Shown here: positions 6,191 to 48,654 of the stretch, piece by piece
Position numbering within the stretch: position 1 is the first letter of the stretch
Layout: each line of letters begins with the position of its first letter
Sequence record: PZ452599.1
DNA from: a phage
Length of the DNA stretch: 51,263 bases
Strand: one strand, 5' to 3'
Translations under genes and position numbers: made by a program
Notes under the pieces: model-generated
Told to the model about the DNA's origin: nothing
The model's database searches: none
What the model saw: only the letters and a program-made list of their open reading frames with translations

Positions 6191-6210
6191 GTTTAACAAA
6201 AAGTGCTATC
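6191..6210. promoter_or_regulatory. reverse-oriented motif copy (GTTTAACAAAAAGTGCTATC) upstream of major capsid gene
   Basis: Located between the Ig-like ORF and terminator 6217-6241; function and direction unresolved. Confidence 0.3.
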
Positions 6211-8018: not shown

Positions 8019-8386
8019 ACTACAATGAGATTGCAAGAATGGCTACGGCTGGGATTAACTTTTTCAGCGATGCTAACGGTATGTTTAAGTGCATCACGCA
8101 GCAGGGAGGGGTTGAGATTATCGGCGGAGAGGAAGTTACCAAGCCGGAGATTTCAGTGATGATAAAGGGGCTTGTTAGATCTCCGAGGACTAGAGAGGTT
8201 GACGGTGAAGCAATCCGAGTAACCGACAAGTTGGGGATATTCACCAATGAAACTGAGATCAAAAATGGTTATCAGATTGAAATTGATGGCGAACGTTATG
8301 TTGTCGTTGAAGCAAGGCCAGTCAGGCAGACTAACATCACGGCGGCTTATCGTCCGATATTAAGGAGGATTGCTGTGCATGGCTGA
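8015..8386 (+). CDS. putative head closure / head-tail joining protein
   Basis: 123 aa from ATG 8015 (ATGA overlap with upstream stop; GGAG 10 nt upstream); track start 8006 lacks RBS spacing. Confidence 0.45.
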
Positions 8387-8822
8387 TAACTATAAGATCA
8401 GGGAATTTCACGGTGATATAAGCAGGTGGATTGATTCAGTAAGCAGCGGCCTTGTTGATTGCGTTGAAATGTTCGCGACAAACGTCCACGAGGATCTTGT
8501 AAATCGCTCGCCAGTTGATACGGGCCGATATAAAGCCAACTGGCAGATAACAGCAAACAAGCCGCCGCTATATGCGCTCAACCAATACGATCGCGATGGT
8601 AGTAAAACCATTGCAGAAGGTAAGCGAGCAATATATGCAATTATGCGTGGCGGTGGCGCTGTGCGGTCAATCTATTTTTCAAACATGCTCATTTACGCAA
8701 ACGCGCTTGAATACGGGCATTCAAAACAAGCGCCGTCCGGCGTACTTGGAATCGTGGCGGTAAAGCTGCGATCTTATATGGCTAAGGCAATAAAGGATTC
8801 GAGGGCAAAAAATGCACTATGA
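8379..8822 (+). CDS. tail completion protein (HK97 gp10-like)
   Basis: 147 aa from ATG 8379 with AAGGAGG 9 nt upstream; DTGRYKANW motif typical of gp10-like neck proteins. Confidence 0.5.
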   Translation: MADNYKIREFHGDISRWIDSVSSGLVDCVEMFATNVHEDLVNRSPVDTGRYKANWQITANKPPLYALNQYDRDGSKTIAEGKRAIYAIMRGGGAVRSIYFSNMLIYANALEYGHSKQAPSGVLGIVAVKLRSYMAKAIKDSRAKNAL

Positions 8823-9213
8823 TTTAATGTTGGCGGCAAGAAAGGCGCTGGCGGCTGAATATGAATCACGATTTAAGATAGCCTATGAAAACGTTGATTT
8901 TGTGCCGCCTGGAGATGGTTCTATGTGGTTAAAATTTAACTACATGGAAGCGGACACGGATCGCATATCTCTTGATAGAAAATGTGTTTCTTACATCGGT
9001 TTGGTTCAGGTTGGAATTGTTATTCCTCCTGGTGGTGGCACTGATAAAGCGCGTTTGCTGGCTAAAGAGATTGCGAGATTTTTCTATGATGGTAGAATGT
9101 TTGAAACTGGCTATATTAGCGAGGGAGCAAACGTCCACGCATTACTAAAAAGTGAAACAGGTTGGTTCTTGCCGATCCGTTTCAGTGTTAGGCTTGACAC
9201 AAAGGAGGAATAA
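8812..9213 (+). CDS. putative tail terminator / tail assembly protein
   Basis: 133 aa; overlaps upstream gene by 11 nt; position immediately before major tail gene. Confidence 0.4.
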   Translation: MHYDLMLAARKALAAEYESRFKIAYENVDFVPPGDGSMWLKFNYMEADTDRISLDRKCVSYIGLVQVGIVIPPGGGTDKARLLAKEIARFFYDGRMFETGYISEGANVHALLKSETGWFLPIRFSVRLDTKEE

Positions 9214-9215
9214 TC

Positions 9216-9878
9216 ATGCACTTGCCTAATGGTTCTCAAATTTTCATCGGCGTTAATATGGGTGAGCCAATTAGCGCGACTCAAATCAGCAATGCTGATA
9301 ATCCTGTTTTTACAACCGAAAACACTCAAAGCATCAAAAAAGGCGCTTATGTTCTTATTGAAACATCTTCTTGGGGAAAACTTGTTAGTCGAGTGCTTCG
9401 AGTTAAGGAAGTATCAGATAATGTAAGTGTTACTCTTGAGGGTGTTAGCACTAAAGATACAAACGTATTTCCAGAAGGACAGAACACAGCAACTTTCCGA
9501 GAAGTGAAATCTTGGGTAGAGGTTCCTTGCGTACAGGATCTTGCGCAGGACGGCGGCGAGCAACAGTATTACACTTATCAGTGTTTGGCTGATGACCAGG
9601 AACAGCAGTTGCCGACCTACAAGAGCGCCGTTTCTCTTACCTATACTTTCGCGCATGAATATGATAATCCGATTTATCCGATCTTGCGCGAGGCTGAGGA
9701 ATCCGGCGACGTAACCGCTTTGCGTATGTACGTGCCGAAAGCTAAAGAGATGCGTTGCTGGGCTGGCGTATTGTCTTTTAATGACATTCCGCAAACCACT
9801 ATGAACGAAATGGAAACTGTTTCCCTTTCCGTATCTCTGAAAGGTCGATTCACGTTCTTACCTTCTGACGTTAAGTAA
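9216..9878 (+). CDS. major tail protein
   Basis: 220 aa; AAAGGAGG RBS; followed by strong terminator; precedes chaperone and tape measure genes. Confidence 0.6.
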   Translation: MHLPNGSQIFIGVNMGEPISATQISNADNPVFTTENTQSIKKGAYVLIETSSWGKLVSRVLRVKEVSDNVSVTLEGVSTKDTNVFPEGQNTATFREVKSWVEVPCVQDLAQDGGEQQYYTYQCLADDQEQQLPTYKSAVSLTYTFAHEYDNPIYPILREAEESGDVTALRMYVPKAKEMRCWAGVLSFNDIPQTTMNEMETVSLSVSLKGRFTFLPSDVK

Positions 9879-9943: not shown

Positions 9944-9963
9944 CTTTTAACAAAAAGTGCTAT
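9944..9963. promoter_or_regulatory. reverse-oriented motif copy abutting RBS of tail chaperone gene
   Basis: CTTTTAACAAAAAGTGCTAT immediately followed by AAGGAGA and ATG 9978; contains TGCTATAAG resembling an extended -10. Confidence 0.3.
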
Positions 9964-15823: not shown

Positions 15824-15848
15824 TACCCGCCTTGCGCGGGTATTTTTG
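15824..15848 (+). terminator. intrinsic terminator after gpI-like gene
   Basis: Hairpin TACCCGC-CTTG-CGCGGGTA followed by TTTTT; TATAAT-like element follows at about 15857. Confidence 0.6.
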
Positions 15849-15896: not shown

Positions 15897-18800
15897 ATGG
15901 CTAAATATATGATAAGTGGCAGTAAAGGGGGCGGTCAAAAGCCCTACGTGCCAAAAGAGATGGAAGATAACCTGATCTCGATAAATAAGATTAAAGTTTT
16001 GCTTGCTGTATCTGATGGCGAGTGCGATCCAAATTTCACGTTGCGCGATCTTTATCTTGATGATGTTCCGGTTATTGCCAGCGATGGCACTGTTAACTAC
16101 GAGGGAGTTACGGCTGAATATCGACCAGGTACGCAGACGCAAGATTACATCCAGGGGTTTACTGACACATCAAGCGAGGTGACAGTTTCGCGAGATATTA
16201 CAGCAGACAATCCTTATGTTATATCTGTAACAAATAAAAATCTTTCTGCGATCAGAATCAAAATTCTGATGCCAGTTGGCATTAAGACAGAGGATAACGG
16301 CGATCTTGTTGGCGTAAGGGTTCAATATGCCGTAGATATGGCTGTTGATGGCGGTTCTTATAACGAGGTTATGAGAGATGTAATTGACGGCAAGACGAGA
16401 TCAGGATATGACCGCAGCAGAAGGATTGATCTTCCTAAGTTTGATGAGCGCGTTTTAATCAGAGTCAAGCGACTGACTCCAGACAGCACATCTTCAAAGG
16501 TGACTGATAAAATCAAACTGCAAAGTTACGCTGAGGTTGTGGATGCAAAATTCCGTTATCCTCTGACTGGCCTTGTATTCGTAGAATTTGACAGCGAATT
16601 GTTTCCTACGCAAATCCCTAACATTTCTATAAAAAAGAAATGGAAGATTATTAATGTGCCAAGCAACTATGATCCAATATCAAGAGAATATCACGGGTCA
16701 TGGGATGGGACTTTTAAAAAAGCGTGGTCAAATAATCCTGCTTGGGTTCTTTATGATCTGGTAACGAATCAGCGTTATGGGCTTGACCAGCGAGAGTTAG
16801 GAATACAGATCGACAAGTGGAGCTTATACGAGGCTGGCGTTTACTGTGATCAGAAAGTTCCAGACGGTAAGGGCGGTACAGAGCCTCGCTACCTATGCGA
16901 TATGGTGATCCAGAATCAGGTTGAGGCTTATCAGCTAATCCGTGACATTTGCTCAATCTTTCGCGGAATGAGCTTTTGGAATGGTGAGAGCTTATCAATC
17001 GTGATTGATAAGCCGCGCGATCCATCATACGTGTTTACTAATGAAAACGTCATCAACGGTGATTTTCAGTACACAACCGCAAGCGAAAAAAGCATGTACA
17101 CGCAGTGTAACGTGACGTTTGACGACGAACAAAACATGTATCAGCAGGACGTAGAGGGGGTTTTTGACACTGAGGCGGCATTACGATTTGGATACAATCC
17201 AACAAGCATTACAGCGATCGGGTGTACACGCAGGAGCGAAGCGAATCGTCGAGGTCGGTGGGTTTTGAAAACAAACCTTAGAAGCACTACTGTAAACTTT
17301 GCTACCGGACTAGAGGGGATGATTCCATCAATAGGTGATGTGATTGCTATCGCTGATAATTTTCAGAGCAGCAATCTAACGTTAAATCTTTCGGGACGAG
17401 TAATGGAAGTTTCAGGCTTGCAAGTTTTCGTTCCGTTTAAAGTTGATGCGCGTCCTGGTGATTTTATTATCATCAATAAGCCGGACGGCAAGCCAGTTAA
17501 GCGAACGATCTCAAAGGTGAGCGCAGACGGAAAAACCATTGAGTTAAATATTGGCTTTGGTTTTGATGTTAAGCCTGATACTGTTTTTGCGATTGACCGT
17601 ACTGACCTTGCGTTGCAGCAATACGTTGTGACAACTATCAGCAAGGGTGATGACGAAAACGAGTTTACCTATTCAATCACGGCTGTGGAGTACGATCCGA
17701 ACAAATACGACGAGATTGATTATGGCGTAAACATTGATGACAGGCCTACTTCAATTGTTCAGCCTGACGTGATGGAAGCGCCGGAGAATGTTCAGATCTC
17801 ATCTTATTCTCGCGTCGTGCAGGGTGTTAGCGTTGAAACTATGGTTGTTTCATGGGATAAGGTTCCTTACGCATCGCTTTATGAAATGCAGTGGCGAAAA
17901 GGTGATGGCAACTGGCTGAATACGCCGCAGACAGCTAACAAAGAGATAGAGGTAGAAGGAATTTACTCAGGGAACTATCAAGTAAGGGTTAGATCTGTTT
18001 CTGCAAGTGGGAACACCTCCCCGTGGTCAAAGATTGCAACCGCCACCCTGACAGGTAAAGTTGGCGAGCCAGGAGCGCCGATTAATCTTACAGCTTCTGA
18101 TAATGAAGTTTTTGGCATTCGTGTTAAATGGGGTATGCCGGAAGGATCAGGCGATACGGCTTACATTGAGCTTCACCAATCGCCAGACGGAACGGTTGAA
18201 AACTCAAGCCTGCTTACGCTGATTCCATATCCTCAATATGAGTATTGGCATAGCACGTTACCAGCGGGTCAAGTTGTATGGTATAGAATCCGTAGCGTTG
18301 ACAGGATCGGCAATGTTTCCGGCTGGACTGACTTTGTTCGCGGCATGGCGTCAGATGATGTTGAATCTGTTTTAGGCGACATTCTGGACAAGATTTTTGA
18401 TACCGAAGCGGGTCAAGAAATCAAAGAGAACGCCATAGACAGTGCCAACAAAATCAAAGACCAGGCGCAATCAATCATCCAGAACGCATTGGCAAACGAT
18501 GCTGATGTGAAATGGACGCGAGTACAAAACGGAAAGCGCAAGGCTGAATATGGTCACGCTCTTGAGCTTATCGCCAACGAAACGGAGGCGCGAGTAACTC
18601 AAATCGAAGAGTTAAAGGCTTCAATTGATGACGATATAGTTTCAAGTATCAAAACCGTTCAGGAAGCGATTGCCAACGAAGCAGAGACGCGAGCTACTCA
18701 AGTTCAGCAGCTTGATTCTAAATTTACGAAGGAAATAGACGGCGTAAAACGAGATACGGCTGCAAGTATTGGTGAGGTAAGGCAAACCATTGCTAATGAA

Positions 18801-19475
18801 TCAGAAGCGCGTGCTCAGGCAGTTCAGCAGCTTGACGCTAAGTTTACGAAAGAGATAAACGACCTTGACGAAGTGATCAAAACCGAAGTCGAGGCTAACA
18901 TCTCAGAAGTGAAACAGGCGATCGCTAATGAGACAGAGGCAAGGGTTCAGGCCGACCAGTCTTTAACAGCTAAATTCGGAGACGTTGAGTCAGCACTAGC
19001 AGAAAAACTTGATTCGTGGGCTAACGTTGATTCGGTTGGCGCTAAGTACGCTATGAAATTGGGCCTTACTTACAAGGGGCAGAAGTACAGCGCAGGAATG
19101 GTAATGCAGCTATCGCAATCGTCGCAGGGGTTGATCTCACAAATCCTTTTCGATGCTAACAGGTTCGCGATCATGACTAGCTCTACTGGCGGTACGTTTA
19201 CATTGCCGTTTGTAGTAGAAAATAACCAGGTGTTTATCAACAGTTTGTTGGTGAAAAACGGGTCCATTACTAACGCAATGATTGGTAACGTGATTCAGTC
19301 AAATAACTTTGTTCAGAATCAGCAAGGATGGAGGCTTGATAAAAATGGTAACTTTGAGAACTACGGAACGAGAGCGGGAGAAGGAGCTACAAAATTCACT
19401 AACGAAGGCTTAAAAGTGAAAGATGCAAATGGACGATTGAGAGTTGAGATAGGGAGAATAACCGGAAGTTGGTAA
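15897..19475 (+). CDS. tail tip / central fiber protein (lambda gpJ-like host specificity protein)
   Basis: 1192 aa from ATG 15897; NPAWVLYDLV gpJ-like motif; C-terminal IANExEAR tandem repeats; followed by bidirectional terminator. Confidence 0.85.
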   Translation: MAKYMISGSKGGGQKPYVPKEMEDNLISINKIKVLLAVSDGECDPNFTLRDLYLDDVPVIASDGTVNYEGVTAEYRPGTQTQDYIQGFTDTSSEVTVSRDITADNPYVISVTNKNLSAIRIKILMPVGIKTEDNGDLVGVRVQYAVDMAVDGGSYNEVMRDVIDGKTRSGYDRSRRIDLPKFDERVLIRVKRLTPDSTSSKVTDKIKLQSYAEVVDAKFRYPLTGLVFVEFDSELFPTQIPNISIKKKWKIINVPSNYDPISREYHGSWDGTFKKAWSNNPAWVLYDLVTNQRYGLDQRELGIQIDKWSLYEAGVYCDQKVPDGKGGTEPRYLCDMVIQNQVEAYQLIRDICSIFRGMSFWNGESLSIVIDKPRDPSYVFTNENVINGDFQYTTASEKSMYTQCNVTFDDEQNMYQQDVEGVFDTEAALRFGYNPTSITAIGCTRRSEANRRGRWVLKTNLRSTTVNFATGLEGMIPSIGDVIAIADNFQSSNLTLNLSGRVMEVSGLQVFVPFKVDARPGDFIIINKPDGKPVKRTISKVSADGKTIELNIGFGFDVKPDTVFAIDRTDLALQQYVVTTISKGDDENEFTYSITAVEYDPNKYDEIDYGVNIDDRPTSIVQPDVMEAPENVQISSYSRVVQGVSVETMVVSWDKVPYASLYEMQWRKGDGNWLNTPQTANKEIEVEGIYSGNYQVRVRSVSASGNTSPWSKIATATLTGKVGEPGAPINLTASDNEVFGIRVKWGMPEGSGDTAYIELHQSPDGTVENSSLLTLIPYPQYEYWHSTLPAGQVVWYRIRSVDRIGNVSGWTDFVRGMASDDVESVLGDILDKIFDTEAGQEIKENAIDSANKIKDQAQSIIQNALANDADVKWTRVQNGKRKAEYGHALELIANETEARVTQIEELKASIDDDIVSSIKTVQEAIANEAETRATQVQQLDSKFTKEIDGVKRDTAASIGEVRQTIANESEARAQAVQQLDAKFTKEINDLDEVIKTEVEANISEVKQAIANETEARVQADQSLTAKFGDVESALAEKLDSWANVDSVGAKYAMKLGLTYKGQKYSAGMVMQLSQSSQGLISQILFDANRFAIMTSSTGGTFTLPFVVENNQVFINSLLVKNGSITNAMIGNVIQSNNFVQNQQGWRLDKNGNFENYGTRAGEGATKFTNEGLKVKDANGRLRVEIGRITGSW
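18560..18980 (+). repeat. imperfect tandem repeats of about 123 bp (3-4 units) inside gpJ-like gene
   Basis: Repeated IANE(T/A/S)EAR...QQLD(S/A)KFTKEI units; clearest pair near 18666-18740 and 18789-18863. Confidence 0.65.
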
Positions 19476-19509
19476 AAAAAAAGGGGGCATAGCCCCCTTT
19501 AATTTTAAT
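19474..19509. terminator. bidirectional intrinsic terminator between convergent gpJ-like gene and leftward operon
   Basis: A9, hairpin GGGGGC-ATA-GCCCCC, then T-rich run. Confidence 0.7.
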
Positions 19510-20119
19510 CATAATGTGATGAATTTATAACCAAAACAGATGAAGCCGTGTAAATACCAACAGGACCAGAAGTTTGTGCAACCTGCCTAGATAAAGAATA
19601 TACCCCGTTGCCATACGCGGCAGCTTGAGACTCAAATATCATGAATCCACCTAAAGACGGATTACGCACAGAGTTTAAAGCTGTTAGTGATGGCATGATG
19701 GCGCAAGGGTATCCCAAGTTAACGTCAAAAGTGATCCCGCTTACAGATACAAGTTTTGCATCCAAAGGCTTCATCTTTCCATGATAAACCATCTCACCAT
19801 TAGCATTATAAAAAGCTATTCCGTGACTACCAGGAGGAGTAACCATATTGCTAAAAGCATAAACAAATACCTCACCTTGATTGTCTGACTTTTCTATCTT
19901 TATTGCGTGCTTCCCACCATTATTAAACTGAGTAAATGCTATGTATGATTTTGATGTTAATCTTACAAAAAAGAAGCACGGTCTATTTATTGGTATAGAA
20001 GTATTAAAAACGGTTCCTGTTCTTGCTGATATTTTCCCTTTATCTATAAGGTTAACAGGAGTGAAATCTGGACTTAACCACAATGATCCGTCTGGTTTTT
20101 TTATGCTCATCCCGTACAT
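19505..20119 (-). CDS. hypothetical protein; candidate receptor-binding protein (two-repeat)
   Basis: 204 aa from ATG 20119 (GGGGG 6 nt upstream); contains two copies of a ~60-100 aa unit also found in the upstream gene; lies between gpJ-like gene and Cor-like lipoprotein. Confidence 0.35.
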   Translation of the reverse strand: MYGMSIKKPDGSLWLSPDFTPVNLIDKGKISARTGTVFNTSIPINRPCFFFVRLTSKSYIAFTQFNNGGKHAIKIEKSDNQGEVFVYAFSNMVTPPGSHGIAFYNANGEMVYHGKMKPLDAKLVSVSGITFDVNLGYPCAIMPSLTALNSVRNPSLGGFMIFESQAAAYGNGVYSLSRQVAQTSGPVGIYTASSVLVINSSHYD

Positions 20120-20121
20120 TA

Positions 20122-20400
20122 TTACCCCCAAAAAGTATATATATATCTTGAGTCAGATCCAGAAAGTCCGCTCCATGTAACAGTATCACCGCTTACACCT
20201 AAACTTGGAGCGCCAGGATCTCCTCCGCGCCACGAACTCATTCCAACATATATTGCTTTCAACGACTTACCTGGCGGCCTGTTTGAGTAGGTCTTACTGC
20301 CAGATGATTGAGTAAATTTATCCAAGAAAAAAACTGGAGTTAAAAGGCCAGTAACATTTCTACCTTGCTCATCATATATTGCATACCCATATTCAGCCAT
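20122..20400 (-). CDS. hypothetical protein; candidate receptor-binding locus component
   Basis: 92 aa; GAGGTG RBS; start overlaps lipoprotein stop; YGYAIYDEQG motif repeated in downstream gene. Confidence 0.35.
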   Translation of the reverse strand: MAEYGYAIYDEQGRNVTGLLTPVFFLDKFTQSSGSKTYSNRPPGKSLKAIYVGMSSWRGGDPGAPSLGVSGDTVTWSGLSGSDSRYIYTFWG

Positions 20401-20674
20401 TTTTGCACCTCAAATCAATGAATTTTCTTTCATCTTGCCAACGGTTGATAAATTTAACTTCTTTATTGTCAACGCTCAACCTGTATTGCTTTTGGCTGAA
20501 TCTGTTTTCGCGGACAGCATTAATTTTAACTTCATGGAATCCGTTAACAGGGAATGTTTTAACGTTAAATTTTGCCGTGCAATCGATCTCCTTGAAGTTA
20601 CCAGTAGGCGAATAAGAACATCCGGTCAGAGCGGCTACGGTGGATATAACTGCGATTAATTTTTTCATCTTCAA
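20393..20674 (-). CDS. outer-membrane lipoprotein, Cor/Llp-like superinfection exclusion candidate
   Basis: 93 aa; signal peptide with lipobox LTGC (MKMKKLIAVISTVAALTGC); first gene of leftward operon driven by a motif-type promoter. Confidence 0.55.
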   Translation of the reverse strand: MKMKKLIAVISTVAALTGCSYSPTGNFKEIDCTAKFNVKTFPVNGFHEVKINAVRENRFSQKQYRLSVDNKEVKFINRWQDERKFIDLRCKNG

Positions 20675-20699
20675 TACCCCTTAGTTGTTGTTGGCTGTA

Positions 20700-20743
20700 A
20701 CTATACACGATCCGGCAAGCCGAGTTTAGCAAAAAGTGCTACT
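20700..20743 (-). promoter_or_regulatory. motif-type promoter (variant GTAGCACTTTTTGCTAAAC plus TATAGT) for lipoprotein operon
   Basis: Motif reverse-complemented on + strand at 20725-20743; -10-like hexamer 18-19 nt downstream on the - strand. Confidence 0.45.
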
Positions 20744-21112
20744 TGTTATTTTTTGTTTTCAGGTGTTATCGGATTTAAGACGGCGTAAATTTAGCGCAAA
20801 TTTTAACCAACATAAGAACAATAAATAATCAATAAAATAGGTATATACATATAAAATCAATAGTTTATTTATTTATGTATGTGTATTTGTTTTTTCTTGT
20901 TATCTGTGTTTCTTGTGGTTTTGGTTGTTTGTGGTGATTTTTCTTTCTGAGTATCTGTGTGTGCCATCATTCATGTGTATGTATATAATCCTGCGTATCT
21001 GAGAGAACAGAGGAACAAGAAAAATAACACATATTAATCATTAATTTACGTGTCAGATTTGTTTTCTTGTCATCTGAGAACGTTTAGAAAACAGAAAAAA
21101 ACAAAACAACTA

Positions 21113-23748: not shown

Positions 23749-26047
23749 TGAGATCAACAAGTTTTGCAACCATCGACTTTAATTCGTCAACCTCACTTCT
23801 TAGCGATCGCAATTCCTCCTCCTGCTCTTTGCAAACTTGCAATATGTATGCAGTTACCGCTGAGTAGTCAACTTGTAGAAATCTTTCCTTCCCAATAAGT
23901 TCGCTACCGTCTTTTGTTGGGCCATGCAATTGCTGATAATCCTCAAAAGAACTAATAGCCTCCGGCACAACCTCCATGATCTCTTGAGCTATAACTCCAG
24001 CATAAGGCATACCATCTTTCTTTAACGTGTATGTATACCCACTAACTTTCTCAAGACCTAGCCTTGCATTTTCAATTGGTTTAATGTCAGTTTTCAAATC
24101 TCTGTCTGACCCATGGTTAAATGCTGTTGCGTTCACAGGTCCGTTAACTTGCAGGTGTTTAGAGTTATTTGAGTTTAACTGAGCATAGAACACCCATCCA
24201 GGGCCGTTATCGAAACCCCACTCAATAACCGACTGACGATCTGACCCGTTGCCCCACAACTTGAAGGTTGCCGGGTGTGACGAGTTGCCATCGTTCAGCA
24301 TTTTGAAATACTTACCACTCGGTCGGTCTATCTCCAAACTCGCCGCCTGTACATATGCTTTCCCCGCGAAATTCTTAGTTCCGAGTACGACGCCGTCGGT
24401 GATCAATTCAACCCTAGAAGACGTGATGTCGTTCAGAAACAGGGCGCTCGTTCCGGTGTCCTTCCCTAAAAACCAAAGACGTGTGCCTGCGGAGTTGTAC
24501 CCTGTTACATGCAGTGGTTGGTTGTTTGTTGACGCTGTTCCGTCGATACGAAAACCGCCATTGGCTGTTGTAACTTTAAGGCTGGGTACGGTCATAGCGA
24601 ATGCGCCACTGGCCGCAAGGCCGTTATACGCGATCAGCTTGTTGTCATACGCAAACTCACCATTGTCGCGCATTTGTAGCGCTTTCTGCGACGTCCTGTT
24701 GCGAATGCCAACATCAGATCCGCCAACAAACATCTCAACAATTCTAGACCCGCTTTTAGCTCTTACATAAGCATTAAATTCAGGAGACGACCCCGCGTTA
24801 TACAACTCGTACCATTGCGACCAGTTGCCAGTAGCAGCGTTACTAAGCCATCGCATAAAACGACGCCCGCTGCTGAATGTTGTATACGTCTGTATGCAGC
24901 TTTTAGGATCGTTAGCGCCAGTGCGCTGAACAAGTAGGCAGCCTGCCGCCTGAATGGGATAATTACGCTCCGGCGTTGCGCTGGCAGACGTGCTAGTATA
25001 ATAAAATCCAGCCTTATCGCCCTGAAGAACGTTAAGATCTTCGCTTACCAACGATGCCTGTCGCTCGTGCATTGCCTGAAGGTTTTTTCTCGCGCCCTGG
25101 TCGTTCGATGCGCCTGTCCCGCCGTCCCCGATCGCCACGTCACCGTTAGCACCCAGCTTCGCCAGTTCAATGGCGCCCACATTTCCAGATGAGCCGTTAA
25201 TCGCGGCATTGTTTCCAGCGAAAACCTTCACGCGAGATGTCTGGTAGTCAACGTTAAACGCAAAAAATGTGTCACCAGCCCCGCCGCACACCCCTGGACC
25301 ATACCTGAACGGCGTCATATCGCCAGAAGGGAACTGCGTAATATCATCGACGCGCCAGAATCCTCCTTTGACAGTATCGCGCAACCGCTTGAGCATATCC
25401 CTTACGCCAGTCGGCGCAGGTAATGTTACACCCGCATACGGCACTCTATTTTGAGCTTCTGAACTTTCAGCAGCAGCCGCTGCGCGATCAGCTTCTGTTT
25501 TAGCCTTGTTTGCACTGTTTGCAGCATTAGTTTCAGATGTTTTGGCGTTTGTCTCAGAAGTCTTCGCGGCACTAGCCGAGTTAGCAGCATTAGTTTCCGA
25601 TGTTTTAGCGTTTGTCTCAGAAGTCTTCGCAGCGCTGGCGCTTTGTTTTGCTGATTCAGCGCCTTGTTTCACCTGATTTACAAGATCTTTCAACCCATCA
25701 AGATCGAAATCTTTAAAAAATTCAAGTGCGTCAGCGATCTCCGTTTCCTTGCTTTGATAGTAACGCAGTGTTTCCGCTACGTCCTGCGCCAGCCCGTCAA
25801 CCGTTAACGAGTCATGAAGCAAGATCAGGTAATTTGTCTTTTGGACTACCGCGCCGCCAGTAGTAATTGCGCGAATGCTTGTATCGCTAATCACCTCTGT
25901 AATCACAGCAGCTTGCAAAGGTTGAGTAAGAAAGAAAATAGTTGCACCTGGGCGAATCAATGTTAATTGCTCACGCCATTTTGTATCGTAACCAGTTACA
26001 TAACCTTGCGCGTCCATAGACGCTTGGCCTTGTCTGTAAATCGCCAT
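23744..26047 (-). CDS. lateral tail fiber with C-terminal intramolecular chaperone (S74-like) domain
   Basis: 767 aa from ATG 26047 (GGAGG RBS); tandem [22 protein letters not shown] repeat; C-terminal [13 protein letters not shown] with [11 protein letters not shown]...VDYSAV resembling auto-cleaving chaperone domains of tail fibers. Confidence 0.7.
25521..25646 (-). repeat. tandem 63-bp direct repeat (2 copies) inside lateral fiber gene
   Basis: 25521-25583 and 25584-25646 are about 90 percent identical; encode [22 protein letters not shown] twice. Confidence 0.8.
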
Positions 26048-29699: not shown

Positions 29700-30118
29700 T
29701 GGCTATAACTGATAAAGGCGATTATCTTGAGTTTTACGAAAGGGATCCAACCGACACGAGAAGGGAAGTTAATCACCAGATAGATAGTTTTCAGTGGTTG
29801 ACTTATGCTCATCCTTATTTGCTGGCGTGGCATACGGTAAACGAGAATGAGAAGTCTAAAGCAACGGCGATGATTGATCAGCAGTCCGGCTTGGTTAAGG
29901 GAGTAAGCGATTTCATCATCCTGATTGGTTTAAACGGAAAATACCCCTTTGCAGCGATTGAGATCAAACGAGTGAATAAATCAGGCAAGGGGAAAGCATC
30001 ACCAGTCAGCGATGAACAAAAGGCTTTTTTGCGTCGCGTTCGCAGCTTAGGAGGATTCGCTGCGGTAGCCTACGGATTCAATCAGTTTAAGTTGGCTATT
30101 GAATACATGCTTAAATAG
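29699..30118 (+). CDS. VRR-NUC domain nuclease
   Basis: 139 aa; TAATG overlap with helicase; GVSDFIILIG...AIEIK PD-(D/E)XK-like motif. Confidence 0.55.
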   Translation: MAITDKGDYLEFYERDPTDTRREVNHQIDSFQWLTYAHPYLLAWHTVNENEKSKATAMIDQQSGLVKGVSDFIILIGLNGKYPFAAIEIKRVNKSGKGKASPVSDEQKAFLRRVRSLGGFAAVAYGFNQFKLAIEYMLK

Positions 30119-30158
30119 CACTTTTTGTTAAAACTGGCGCGATGGATTGCGCCATAAT
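30116..30158 (+). promoter_or_regulatory. motif-type promoter (motif, 18-nt hairpin spacer, CATAAT)
   Basis: TAGCACTTTTTGTTAAAAC 30116-30134; spacer hairpin GGCGC...GCGCC; CATAAT 30153-30158; upstream of dam. Confidence 0.5.
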
Positions 30159-41413: not shown

Positions 41414-41831
41414 GGTTGCAGGGGAGATAGTGAAACCTTCCCCTCTTGCCTCACTTTTCCGCCTGGCTGTCAGTGGTTGTTATGTTCCGTTCCCACGTGT
41501 TTTTTTGTTGACCTTCCGCAAAATACGATAACAAAAAATAACAAACAATACCTATATAATACATTGAAAAATAAGGATTATTTATTTATATGTATCTATA
41601 TATTCTCTTTTGTTATCTTGGTTATTGTGGTATTTGGTGGGGGTATATAGTTTTTGTGTATCTGTATGTGTGTATGGGTATGTAGGGGCATATATATCTA
41701 TATGGCGCTTTCCGCGCGAAAACTTCGATAACAGGCAATGATAACATTGATTTATAAGGAAAAATAACGCCCATATTGTTATTGTGCCACCATATAAAAT
41801 TGATAAAACACGCGGGAACAAGAAAAAACAG

Positions 41832-42353: not shown

Positions 42354-42613
42354 AAAAGGCATTAATCAGCGTTTTGGCGGCAATGGCATTCCTGACCGGA
42401 TGTAATGGTGATGGCGCTTACGTCGATGCGCAAATGGCTAACCCTTCCGATACTTACAACGTCAGAAAACTATTTACAGTTGATGGTTGCGATGTGTACA
42501 GGTTCAGCGATAGCCGATACGTGTACTTTACCAACTGCCAGGGTAGCGCAAACTGGTCAACTAACGAAGGTAAGTCGGTTGGTCACTACCAGAACACAAC
42601 AAACGTGAAATAG
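42350..42613 (+). CDS. lipoprotein (second; candidate superinfection exclusion or surface-modifying protein)
   Basis: 87 aa; ATGA coupling; signal peptide with lipobox FLTGC (MKKALISVLAAMAFLTGC). Confidence 0.55.
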   Translation: MKKALISVLAAMAFLTGCNGDGAYVDAQMANPSDTYNVRKLFTVDGCDVYRFSDSRYVYFTNCQGSANWSTNEGKSVGHYQNTTNVK

Positions 42614-42653
42614 CACTTTTTGTTAAAACGCCAGGTGCAAAGCCTGGCATAAT
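42611..42653 (+). promoter_or_regulatory. motif-type promoter
   Basis: Motif 42611-42629 (begins with stop codon of lipoprotein gene); spacer hairpin GCCAGG...CCTGGC; CATAAT 42648-42653. Confidence 0.5.
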
Positions 42654-48611: not shown

Positions 48612-48654
48612 TAGCACTTTTTGTTAAAACTTCCGCAAGGGCATTTGATAAAGT
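48612..48654 (+). promoter_or_regulatory. motif-type promoter
   Basis: Motif 48612-48630; GATAAA-like -10 inside hairpin AAGGGCA...TGCCCTT; upstream of gene 48687. Confidence 0.45.

What the first reader, a model, noticed from the sequence alone, without database searches (positions are those of the whole stretch)
19505..20760. Leftward three-gene locus behind the gpJ-like gene: lipoprotein plus two repeat-containing proteins (candidate receptor-binding / superinfection-exclusion locus)
A motif-type promoter (20700-20743) drives a Cor/Llp-like lipoprotein (lipobox LTGC) translationally coupled to a 92-aa and a 204-aa protein. These share a repeated ~60-100 aa unit beginning (Y/H)G..(I/F)...(D/N)G and ending GG, present three times across the two proteins. 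The position between the central tail fiber gene and the early region, and the pairing with a lipoprotein, fit a receptor-binding protein with its cognate exclusion factor, as described for FhuA-dependent siphoviruses. The repeat family itself is not one I recognise.
Basis: inference. Interest (0 to 1): 0.6.

Follow-up and report, generated by a model that had tools for sequence, protein, structure and literature searches.

The report
Split receptor-binding protein plus exclusion lipoprotein
This three-gene block behind the tail-tip gene of a T1-like coliphage most likely encodes the protein that recognises the host's BtuB outer-membrane receptor, made here as two separate chains, together with a small lipoprotein that blocks that receptor in infected cells; it is a known kind of locus with an internal architecture not described before.

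Summary
Three tightly packed leftward genes (a 91-aa lipoprotein, a 92-aa and a 204-aa protein) lie between the gpJ gene and a phage-specific upstream motif, and end at a shared terminator. The window is a Warwickvirus (Drexlerviridae). The cassette is the allele carried by three small siphoviruses reported as BtuB-dependent, so the likely receptor is BtuB, not FhuA.

Caveats: nothing has been tested for the BtuB allele, and deletions of the Stx-phage homologues were not among the genes essential for plaque formation.

The parts
20700..20744 (-). Phage-specific upstream motif (TAGCACTTTTTGCTAAA at 20741..20725) followed by TATAGT (20705..20700); presumed promoter of the cassette
   Evidence: 17 copies in the window, 0 expected (families D1-D9). 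The same motif precedes the lipoprotein gene in FritzSarasin and PeterMerian, and a one-base variant does so in KarlJaspers. It is not called by the sigma-70 scan.
20393..20668 (-). Cor-type superinfection-exclusion lipoprotein (91 aa precursor, lipobox LTGC, mature form 75 aa starting at the lipidated Cys17; further Cys at 30 and 88)
   Evidence: Pfam LPAM_1. PHROG 1119 Cor, E 1.9e-6. tblastn finds it in only 83 phage records, which include the three phages reported as BtuB-dependent: Bas04, Bas06 and PTXU06.
20122..20400 (-). 92-aa protein: module 1 of the receptor-binding protein (counterpart of the N-terminal ~90 residues of single-chain relatives)
   Evidence: PHROG 557, E 6.6e-21. Its family profile aligns to residues 1-84 of ~320-aa relatives, and the concatenated pair aligns end to end with them. 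Homologous to module 2 (E 3.6e-7). No signal peptide or hydrophobic segment.
19505..20119 (-). 204-aa protein: modules 2 and 3 of the receptor-binding protein
19480..19500 (.). Hairpin terminator read on both strands, shared with the convergent gpJ gene
   Evidence: 9-bp stem with 6 G-C pairs, called on both strands, with a T-run on the minus strand.
15897..19475 (+). gpJ-like central tail-fibre (tail tip) gene, the presumed docking partner. The start is taken as the ATG giving 1192 aa, as annotated in PeterMerian; the listed TTG ORF starts at 15846.

Best explanation
The locus is the BtuB-type host-recognition and superinfection-exclusion cassette of a Warwickvirus (Drexlerviridae).

The 92-aa and 204-aa products together form one receptor-binding protein built from three homologous beta-rich modules of about 95 residues each. 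Module 1 is the 92-aa chain; modules 2 and 3 are the 204-aa chain. In other phages the same three modules form a single ~320-aa polypeptide. The two-chain protein is inferred to sit as one copy on the distal tip of the trimeric gpJ fibre. There it would bind the extracellular face of the BtuB barrel and commit the phage to DNA ejection.

The lipoprotein, the first gene in the unit, is exported and lipidated. By analogy with T5 Llp on FhuA and Rtp45 on LptD, it would bind the periplasmic side of the same receptor, so that the receptor no longer accepts the receptor-binding protein. That would exclude superinfecting phages and spare progeny from adsorbing to debris.

Shown here: gene structure, family membership, the repeat, the split/fusion relationship and the predicted fold match. 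Inferred: BtuB specificity (from homologues in phages reported as BtuB-dependent), attachment to gpJ, stoichiometry and the exclusion mechanism.
For: Identity of the phage and cassette. The region is 98% identical to Warwickviruses JLBYU07, JLBYU26, JLBYU10 and vB_EcoS-95. Those JLBYU phages are reported as not FhuA-dependent. It is 87% identical in DNA to FritzSarasin (Bas04), listed as BtuB-dependent.

The cassette tracks BtuB. The same lipoprotein / ~92-aa / 204-aa cassette, convergent with J, occurs in Bas06 KarlJaspers (Hanrivervirus, BtuB in the BASEL table) and in PTXU06 (Dhillonvirus, called BtuB-dependent). Protein identities to the window are 52-90%, 71-92% and 58-87% respectively. 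By tblastn the lipoprotein is confined to 83 phage records carrying this cassette.

Cassette swap. PeterMerian, of the same genus but FhuA-dependent, carries a different cassette at the same site. This fits the published match between allele and receptor.

Not membrane proteins. Neither protein has a signal peptide or a transmembrane-like segment.

Virion association of a homologue. phi24B gp54 (204 aa) was detected in the virion proteome, and extra density sits at the needle tip. The window proteins are 48% identical to the corresponding pair of Stx2 phage 86.

Independent modelling. AlphaFold-Multimer work on FhuA-type and BamA-type homologues placed one copy of the larger protein on the J trimer.
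Against: No experiment exists for the BtuB-type proteins. Receptor specificity rests on correlation across phages.

In the Stx2 phage Sp5, primers for single deletions of ORF72 (92 aa) and ORF73 (205 aa) are listed. These are taken as homologues from their size and position between the J-like ORF71 and the lom-like ORF74. Neither is among the nine genes essential for plaque formation and lysogenisation on K-12.

The fused homologue Vid5 gp23 is not named among the virion proteins found by mass spectrometry.

No sequence similarity to the Oekolampad protein is detectable, so the link is structural only and rests on AlphaFold models.

The last 100 residues of gpJ are about as similar to a FhuA-type congener (84%) as to BtuB-type phages (80-89%), so I saw no co-variation between the J tip and the cassette.

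The Cor assignment rests on one weak profile hit. There is no match to solved Llp or Rtp45 sequences.
Confidence: 0.75

Rival explanations
1. Only the 204-aa protein is the receptor-binding protein. The 92-aa protein is a separate accessory, for instance a trimeric Ig-like adaptor between gpJ and the larger protein or an assembly factor, rather than an integral third module.
For: AlphaFold-Multimer modelling of FhuA-type homologues considered trimers of the small protein on the J tip, and the authors called it Ig-like. The 2026 receptor-prediction preprint treats neighbours of the receptor-binding protein as 'accessory proteins'. phi24B gp55, the small partner, was not detected in virions.
Against: Natural single-chain relatives contain the 92-aa homology in cis at a 1:1 ratio. 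Adding that module raises the aligned length against 9rpt_C from 147 to 209 residues. The same published modelling favoured termination of the tip by the larger protein over the trimeric small one.
Confidence: 0.13
2. The two proteins are a dispensable, auxiliary adhesin or host-range modifier. Primary recognition would lie elsewhere, in gpJ itself or in the lateral fibres.
For: The Sp5 ORF72 and ORF73 deletions are not among the essential genes. TolC- and LamB-specific relatives recognise their receptor with a C-terminal extension of gpJ and lack the locus.
Against: Here gpJ ends in the short conserved tip shared by FhuA- and BtuB-type phages and has no extra receptor domain. Receptor specificity follows the cassette 'without exception' in the BASEL small siphoviruses. 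The structural homologue binds its receptor directly.
Confidence: 0.08
3. The two proteins are membrane-associated partners of Cor that act in superinfection exclusion, as their database names and one recent paper suggest.
For: [quoted passage not shown] The KanT1 paper assumed a role in superinfection exclusion from their linkage with cor, after finding no Foldseek or HHpred hits. Here they share a transcription unit with the lipoprotein.
Against: Neither has a signal peptide or a hydrophobic segment, and published membrane-affinity estimates for homologues are low. The fold matches a virion receptor-binding protein. In ES18, P400, PeterMerian and Vid5 the genes are co-directional with J, and in ES18 and PeterMerian they are separate from cor. 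A homologue is in the phi24B virion proteome.
Confidence: 0.04

Closest known systems
BtuB allele of the 'bona fide RBP locus' downstream of gpJ in small siphoviruses (Maffei et al. 2021, PMC8594841; bioRxiv 10.64898/2026.04.02.716166), e.g. FritzSarasin bas04_0023-0025
   Same: Same position, same three genes in the same order and orientation, with 87-92% protein identity. The locus is proposed there to encode the receptor-binding protein plus the cognate exclusion protein.
   Different: Nothing substantive; the window carries a member of this allele. The literature treats the small protein as an accessory and calls the receptor families 'unrelated'. It does not describe the split-gene relation or the three-module repeat found here.
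Oekolampad (Bas18) receptor-binding protein and its exclusion lipoprotein; Rtp44/Rtp45 (Dunbar et al. 2025, PMC12685063; PDB 9RPT)
   Different: Single chain rather than two. It targets LptD. No detectable sequence similarity. The lipoproteins are unrelated in sequence.
cor cassette of T1, phi80, N15, HK022 and ES18 (Cor plus an 'outer membrane protein' and a 'membrane associated protein'); also PeterMerian bas05_0023-0025
   Same: Homologous pair (PHROG 557/425). ES18 gp30 and gp31 are 17% and 27% identical to the window proteins, align collinearly and carry the same three YG/WG hairpin motifs. A Cor-type lipoprotein lies next door.
   Different: FhuA-specific. The pair is co-transcribed with J and cor lies alone on the opposite strand, whereas here all three genes form one leftward unit.
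T5 pb5 / Llp (FhuA) and the BF23-type BtuB system
   Same: Same logic: a monomeric receptor-binding protein at the tip of a trimeric fibre, plus a small lipoprotein that blocks the same receptor from the periplasmic side.
   Different: No homology detected. pb5 is a much larger single chain of a different family, encoded elsewhere in the genome. The lipoprotein tblastn search found no T5-like phage.
Stx-phage tip pair (phi24B gp55/gp54; Sp5 ORF72/ORF73; Stx2-86 gp27/gp28)
   Same: The closest relatives outside the BtuB group: 48% identity for both proteins, with the same sizes and order after a J-like needle gene.
   Different: Short-tailed temperate phages with BamA as the reported receptor. 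A lom-like gene follows rather than a Cor-type lipoprotein. The pair is not essential in Sp5.

Membership tests
Small-siphovirus receptor-binding locus downstream of gpJ, BtuB allele | Lies directly downstream of the gpJ homologue | tested here: met
   gpJ ends at 19475; the cassette spans 19505-20668 and is convergent with it.
Small-siphovirus receptor-binding locus downstream of gpJ, BtuB allele | Allele homologous (>30% identity, full coverage) to that of phages reported as BtuB-dependent | tested here: met
   58-87% identity for the 204-aa protein against Bas04, Bas06 and PTXU06.
Small-siphovirus receptor-binding locus downstream of gpJ, BtuB allele | This phage depends on BtuB for infection | not testable with these tools
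   Needs plating on a btuB mutant. The nearest relatives are reported only as 'not FhuA-dependent'.
Oekolampad/Rtp44-type receptor-binding protein fold (PDB 9RPT chain C) | Same three-dimensional fold | tested here: met
Oekolampad/Rtp44-type receptor-binding protein fold (PDB 9RPT chain C) | Detectable sequence homology | tested here: not met
   hmmsearch and hhalign against the Oekolampad sequence give E 0.06-0.2. No PDB hit by sequence.
Oekolampad/Rtp44-type receptor-binding protein fold (PDB 9RPT chain C) | Binds the extracellular face of an outer-membrane barrel | not testable with these tools
   No complex-prediction or binding assay is available.
Cor/Llp-type superinfection-exclusion lipoproteins | Signal peptide with lipobox and a small mature protein | tested here: met
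   MKKLIAVISTVAALTG|C; Pfam LPAM_1. The mature form is 75 aa.
Cor/Llp-type superinfection-exclusion lipoproteins | Match to the Cor family profile | tested here: met
   PHROG 1119, E 1.9e-6 over residues 3-91. The match is weak: pairwise BLASTP against ES18 Cor gives E 0.35 but shares the CTA...VR...QYR...W...C pattern.
Cor/Llp-type superinfection-exclusion lipoproteins | Sequence relation to solved Llp or Rtp45 | tested here: not met
   phmmer against PDB sequences finds nothing up to E 10.
Cor/Llp-type superinfection-exclusion lipoproteins | Confers resistance to phages that use the same receptor | not testable with these tools
   Needs expression in a host and phage challenge.
cor-cassette pair (PHROG 557 + PHROG 425) | Both proteins match the family profiles and are adjacent, in the order small then large | tested here: met
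   E 6.6e-21 and 4.7e-51. The small proteins align collinearly with ES18, PeterMerian, P400 and Stx homologues.
Membrane proteins (as the database names imply) | Signal peptide, transmembrane helix or barrel signature | tested here: not met
   Maximum 19-residue hydropathy is 0.59 and 1.23, and neither has an N-terminal hydrophobic stretch. No Pfam hit.

The most novel reading that the evidence does not exclude
The three homologous modules, each opening with a conserved YG-x-x-(I/F)-x-x-x-x-G beta-hairpin, form a pseudo-threefold cap in which one hairpin docks on each chain of the gpJ trimer. A single asymmetric protein, or here a two-chain protein, would thereby resolve the symmetry mismatch between a trimeric fibre and a monomeric barrel receptor.

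On this reading the FhuA, BtuB and LptD receptor-binding proteins of small siphoviruses, and the Stx-phage tip pair, are one ancient superfamily rather than 'unrelated' families. The break between modules 1 and 2 would be a tolerated split point that might be useful for engineering receptor swaps.
Probability: 0.3. Interest if true: 0.6.

Novelty: new member of a known kind. Interest (0 to 1): 0.4.

Why it matters
Receptor choice in T1-like phages is set by this swappable cassette, so knowing which chains make up the receptor-binding protein matters for predicting host range from sequence and for engineering phages onto new receptors.

Three points from this work are not in the papers I read. 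First, the 'accessory' small protein corresponds to the N-terminal module of single-chain relatives. Second, the whole protein is a triplicated module. Third, the BtuB type shares a predicted fold with the solved LptD-binding protein. Together they link families recently described as unrelated, and they argue against the 'membrane protein' annotations that another recent paper took at face value.

They also give a concrete construct for structural work on BtuB recognition: co-express both chains.

Tried and rejected
BLASTP between the two proteins and between the halves of the 204-aa protein found nothing. Shallow-alignment hhalign saw only a 15-residue motif. The repeat became significant only with roughly 100-sequence alignments.

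Sequence searches of the PDB with both family profiles and with the lipoprotein found nothing useful.

Sequence comparison of the family with the Oekolampad protein was negative.

I looked for co-variation between the gpJ C-terminus and the cassette type and saw none at the level of percent identity.

I checked Vid5 virion proteomics for the fused homologue; it is not among the proteins named.

The generic sigma-70 scan does not support a canonical promoter upstream of the cassette.

An early idea that the hairpin motif marks a bulb-type lectin or YD repeat got only one weak BFVD hit (rank 14) and no Pfam support. I dropped it.

Full report
**What is in the sequence**

On the minus strand, directly behind the convergent gpJ-like gene (which ends at 19475), lie three close-packed ORFs.
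- A 91-aa lipoprotein precursor, 20668..20393. The ATG is preceded by AAGGGG, and the signal peptide ends in the lipobox LTG|C.
- A 92-aa ORF, 20400..20122. Its ATG overlaps the upstream stop codon (ATGGCTGA).
- A 204-aa ORF, 20119..19505. Its ATG lies two bases after the upstream TAA.

A G+C-rich hairpin with a T-run (19500..19480) ends the unit and is shared with gpJ.

Upstream lies one copy of an element, TAGCACTTTTTGYTAAA, that occurs 17 times in the window against none expected. A TATAGT follows 21 nt after its TTGCTA. The generic sigma-70 scan does not call this a promoter. Two other copies point against the local genes. I therefore treat promoter function as plausible but unproven. The same element precedes the lipoprotein gene in related Tempevirinae.

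**Where the window comes from, and which receptor**

The region is 98% identical to Warwickviruses (Drexlerviridae) such as JLBYU07, JLBYU26, JLBYU10 and vB_EcoS-95. It is 87% identical to FritzSarasin (Bas04).
- The BASEL supplementary table lists Bas04 as BtuB-dependent.
- The JLBYU Warwickviruses are reported as not FhuA-dependent, with their receptor unknown.
- The same cassette (lipoprotein, ~92 aa, 204 aa), convergent with J, is present in KarlJaspers (Bas06, Hanrivervirus), listed as BtuB in the BASEL table.
- It is also present in vB_EcoS_PTXU06 (Dhillonvirus), called BtuB-dependent.

Identities to the window proteins are 52-90% for the lipoprotein, 71-92% for the 92-aa protein and 58-87% for the 204-aa protein. 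By tblastn the lipoprotein occurs in only 83 phage records, all small siphovirus-sized genomes carrying this cassette.

PeterMerian, of the same genus but FhuA-dependent, carries a different cassette at the same site. There a 103-aa and a 197-aa gene are co-directional with J, and a cor-like gene lies alone on the other strand.

This is the pattern described by Maffei et al. 2021 as 'bona fide RBP loci' whose alleles match the terminal receptor. A 2026 preprint confirmed it. The most likely receptor is therefore BtuB. This is an inference from homologues, not a test.

**The lipoprotein**

It matches the PHROG Cor family (E 1.9e-6 over nearly its whole length). It shares with ES18 Cor a pattern of a Cys soon after the lipobox, VR...QYR, a Trp and a C-terminal Cys. 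Cys30 and Cys88 are conserved in all BtuB-type homologues examined. It has no sequence match to solved structures.

Solved examples of the same logic exist. T5 Llp on FhuA and Rtp45 on LptD both bind the periplasmic side of the receptor and prevent binding of the receptor-binding protein. I infer the same mechanism here, acting on BtuB.

**The two downstream proteins**

They belong to PHROG 557 and 425 (E 6.6e-21 and 4.7e-51). [quoted passage not shown] The same pair occurs in short-tailed Stx phages, Klebsiella T1-like phages and others. Neither protein has a signal peptide or a hydrophobic segment, so the names are misleading.

**A split gene**

An exhaustive profile search with the 204-aa family found 130 representative proteins. 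About 11 of these are 309-325 aa long, and in them the homology begins near residue 94-115.
- Their N-terminal ~85 residues match the profile of the 92-aa family (26 bits, conditional E 2e-9).
- The concatenated 92+204 sequence aligns with them end to end at 21-26% identity.
- Pantoea phage Vid5 gp23 (326 aa) is such a fusion directly after its J-like gene. Yersinia phage P400 has the split form.
- A fused query hits both adjacent genes in Warwickviruses by tblastn.

In the 204-aa model on its own, the two hairpin-motif segments (residues 1-20 and 96-115) are the low-confidence parts. In the fused model the equivalent segments are confident. This fits the idea that the first module completes the fold, although the two predictions also differ in alignment depth.

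I conclude that the 92-aa and 204-aa products are the two chains of one receptor-binding protein. In other lineages the same protein is a single polypeptide of about 320 aa, close to the 321 aa of the Oekolampad protein.

**The repeat**

It also appears in FhuA-type ES18 gp30 and gp31.

With alignments of about 100 sequences per module, profile-profile comparison gives the following.
- 92-aa family against residues 1-90 of the 204-aa family: probability 93%, E 3.6e-7, 85 columns.
- 92-aa family against the C-terminal half (from residue 96): E 7e-6.
- The two halves of the 204-aa family against each other: E 3.5e-6.

Reversed or column-shuffled controls score E of 0.045 or worse. The protein is thus a triplicated module of about 95 residues, split after the first copy. 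Foldseek against viral models also finds ~95-aa phage proteins that match one module of the 204-aa model. The 'ending GG' is not conserved.

**Evidence from relatives, for and against**

For:
- A 2025 modelling paper proposed that the FhuA-type, BamA-type and a Pseudomonas-phage pair are misannotated tail-tip components. In its models one copy of the larger 'hand-like' protein caps the J trimer.
- A 2026 cryo-EM and proteomics preprint on phi24B found gp54 (204 aa) in virions at low abundance. It also saw a small asymmetric density at the needle tip.
- The window proteins are 48% identical to the corresponding pair of Stx2 phage 86.

Against:
- In Stx2 phage Sp5, primers for single deletions of ORF72 (92 aa) and ORF73 (205 aa) are listed. 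I take these as homologues from their size and position after the J-like ORF71. Neither is among the nine genes essential for plaque formation or lysogenisation on K-12.
- Vid5 gp23 is not named among the virion proteins found by mass spectrometry.
- The KanT1 paper, which found no structural hits, assumed that the pair works with Cor in exclusion.
- I saw no clear co-variation between the gpJ C-terminus and the cassette type.

**Verdict**

This is the receptor-recognition and superinfection-exclusion cassette of a T1-like phage. It is a known kind of locus whose BtuB allele is already catalogued, and the window adds one more member.

This analysis adds four things: the structural link to a solved receptor-binding protein, the split-gene relationship, statistical confirmation of the three-module repeat, and the correction of the receptor to BtuB.

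The mechanistic steps remain inferences. These are attachment to gpJ, 1:1 stoichiometry, BtuB binding and periplasmic blocking by the lipoprotein.

Noticed in passing
window, 17 sites (e.g. 6192-6208 -, 9946-9962 -, 20725-20741 -, 30116-30132 +, 42611-42627 +, 48612-48628 +): A conserved element, TAGCACTTTTTG(T/C)TAAA, is followed after about 20 nt (often a short palindrome such as GCCAGG...CCTGGC) by CATAAT or TATAGT. It occurs 17 times against 0 expected. The spacing is too long for a canonical sigma-70 promoter. Two copies in the structural-gene region point against the local genes. It may be a phage-specific promoter or regulator site.
   Followed up: partly
window 20865-20944 and 41578-41638: A T/G-rich element of about 60 nt (TTATTTATTTATGTATGTGTATTTG...TGTGGTTTTGGT) occurs in the 410-bp gap between the cassette and the rightward exonuclease gene, partly as an internal direct repeat offset by 19 nt, and again near 41.6 kb. 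Its function is unknown; it could be part of a divergent control region or an origin.
   Followed up: no
L009 (PeterMerian MZ501101) 8051-9286 versus window 19505-20744: Within one genus the cassette is exchanged wholesale and its gene orientation differs. In the FhuA type the two tip-protein genes are co-transcribed with J and only cor sits behind the TAGCACTTTTTG motif. In the BtuB type all three genes sit behind it. This implies different timing control of the receptor-binding protein in the two types.
   Followed up: partly
phage records MG065643, MG065649, MG065680, MG065681 ('Campylobacter phage' E6, A143, A113, A139; each 49,946 bp): Records labelled as Campylobacter jejuni phages carry this E. 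coli T1-like cassette (53-63% protein identity). They are probably mislabelled or contaminant Drexlerviridae genomes.
   Followed up: no
L002 (Stx2 phage 86) 5714-6618; Sp5 ORF72/ORF73: The tip pair of short-tailed Stx phages is 48% identical to the BtuB-type pair, far closer than the FhuA-type pair is (17-27%). By the >30% identity rule used in a 2026 preprint it would fall in the 'BtuB' family, yet these phages are reported to use BamA, and the pair is dispensable in Sp5. Its target in Stx phages is worth testing.
   Followed up: partly
window 18664-18741 and 18784-18861 (inside gpJ); 25517-25639 (inside the 775-aa minus-strand ORF at the position where FritzSarasin has its lateral tail-fibre gene): There are in-frame tandem duplications. 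A 120-nt-spaced repeat in gpJ encodes IANE(T/S)EAR...QQLD(S/A)KFTKEI segments. A 63-nt repeat at 90% identity lies in the probable lateral-fibre gene. Both suggest length variation in the fibre shafts.
   Followed up: no
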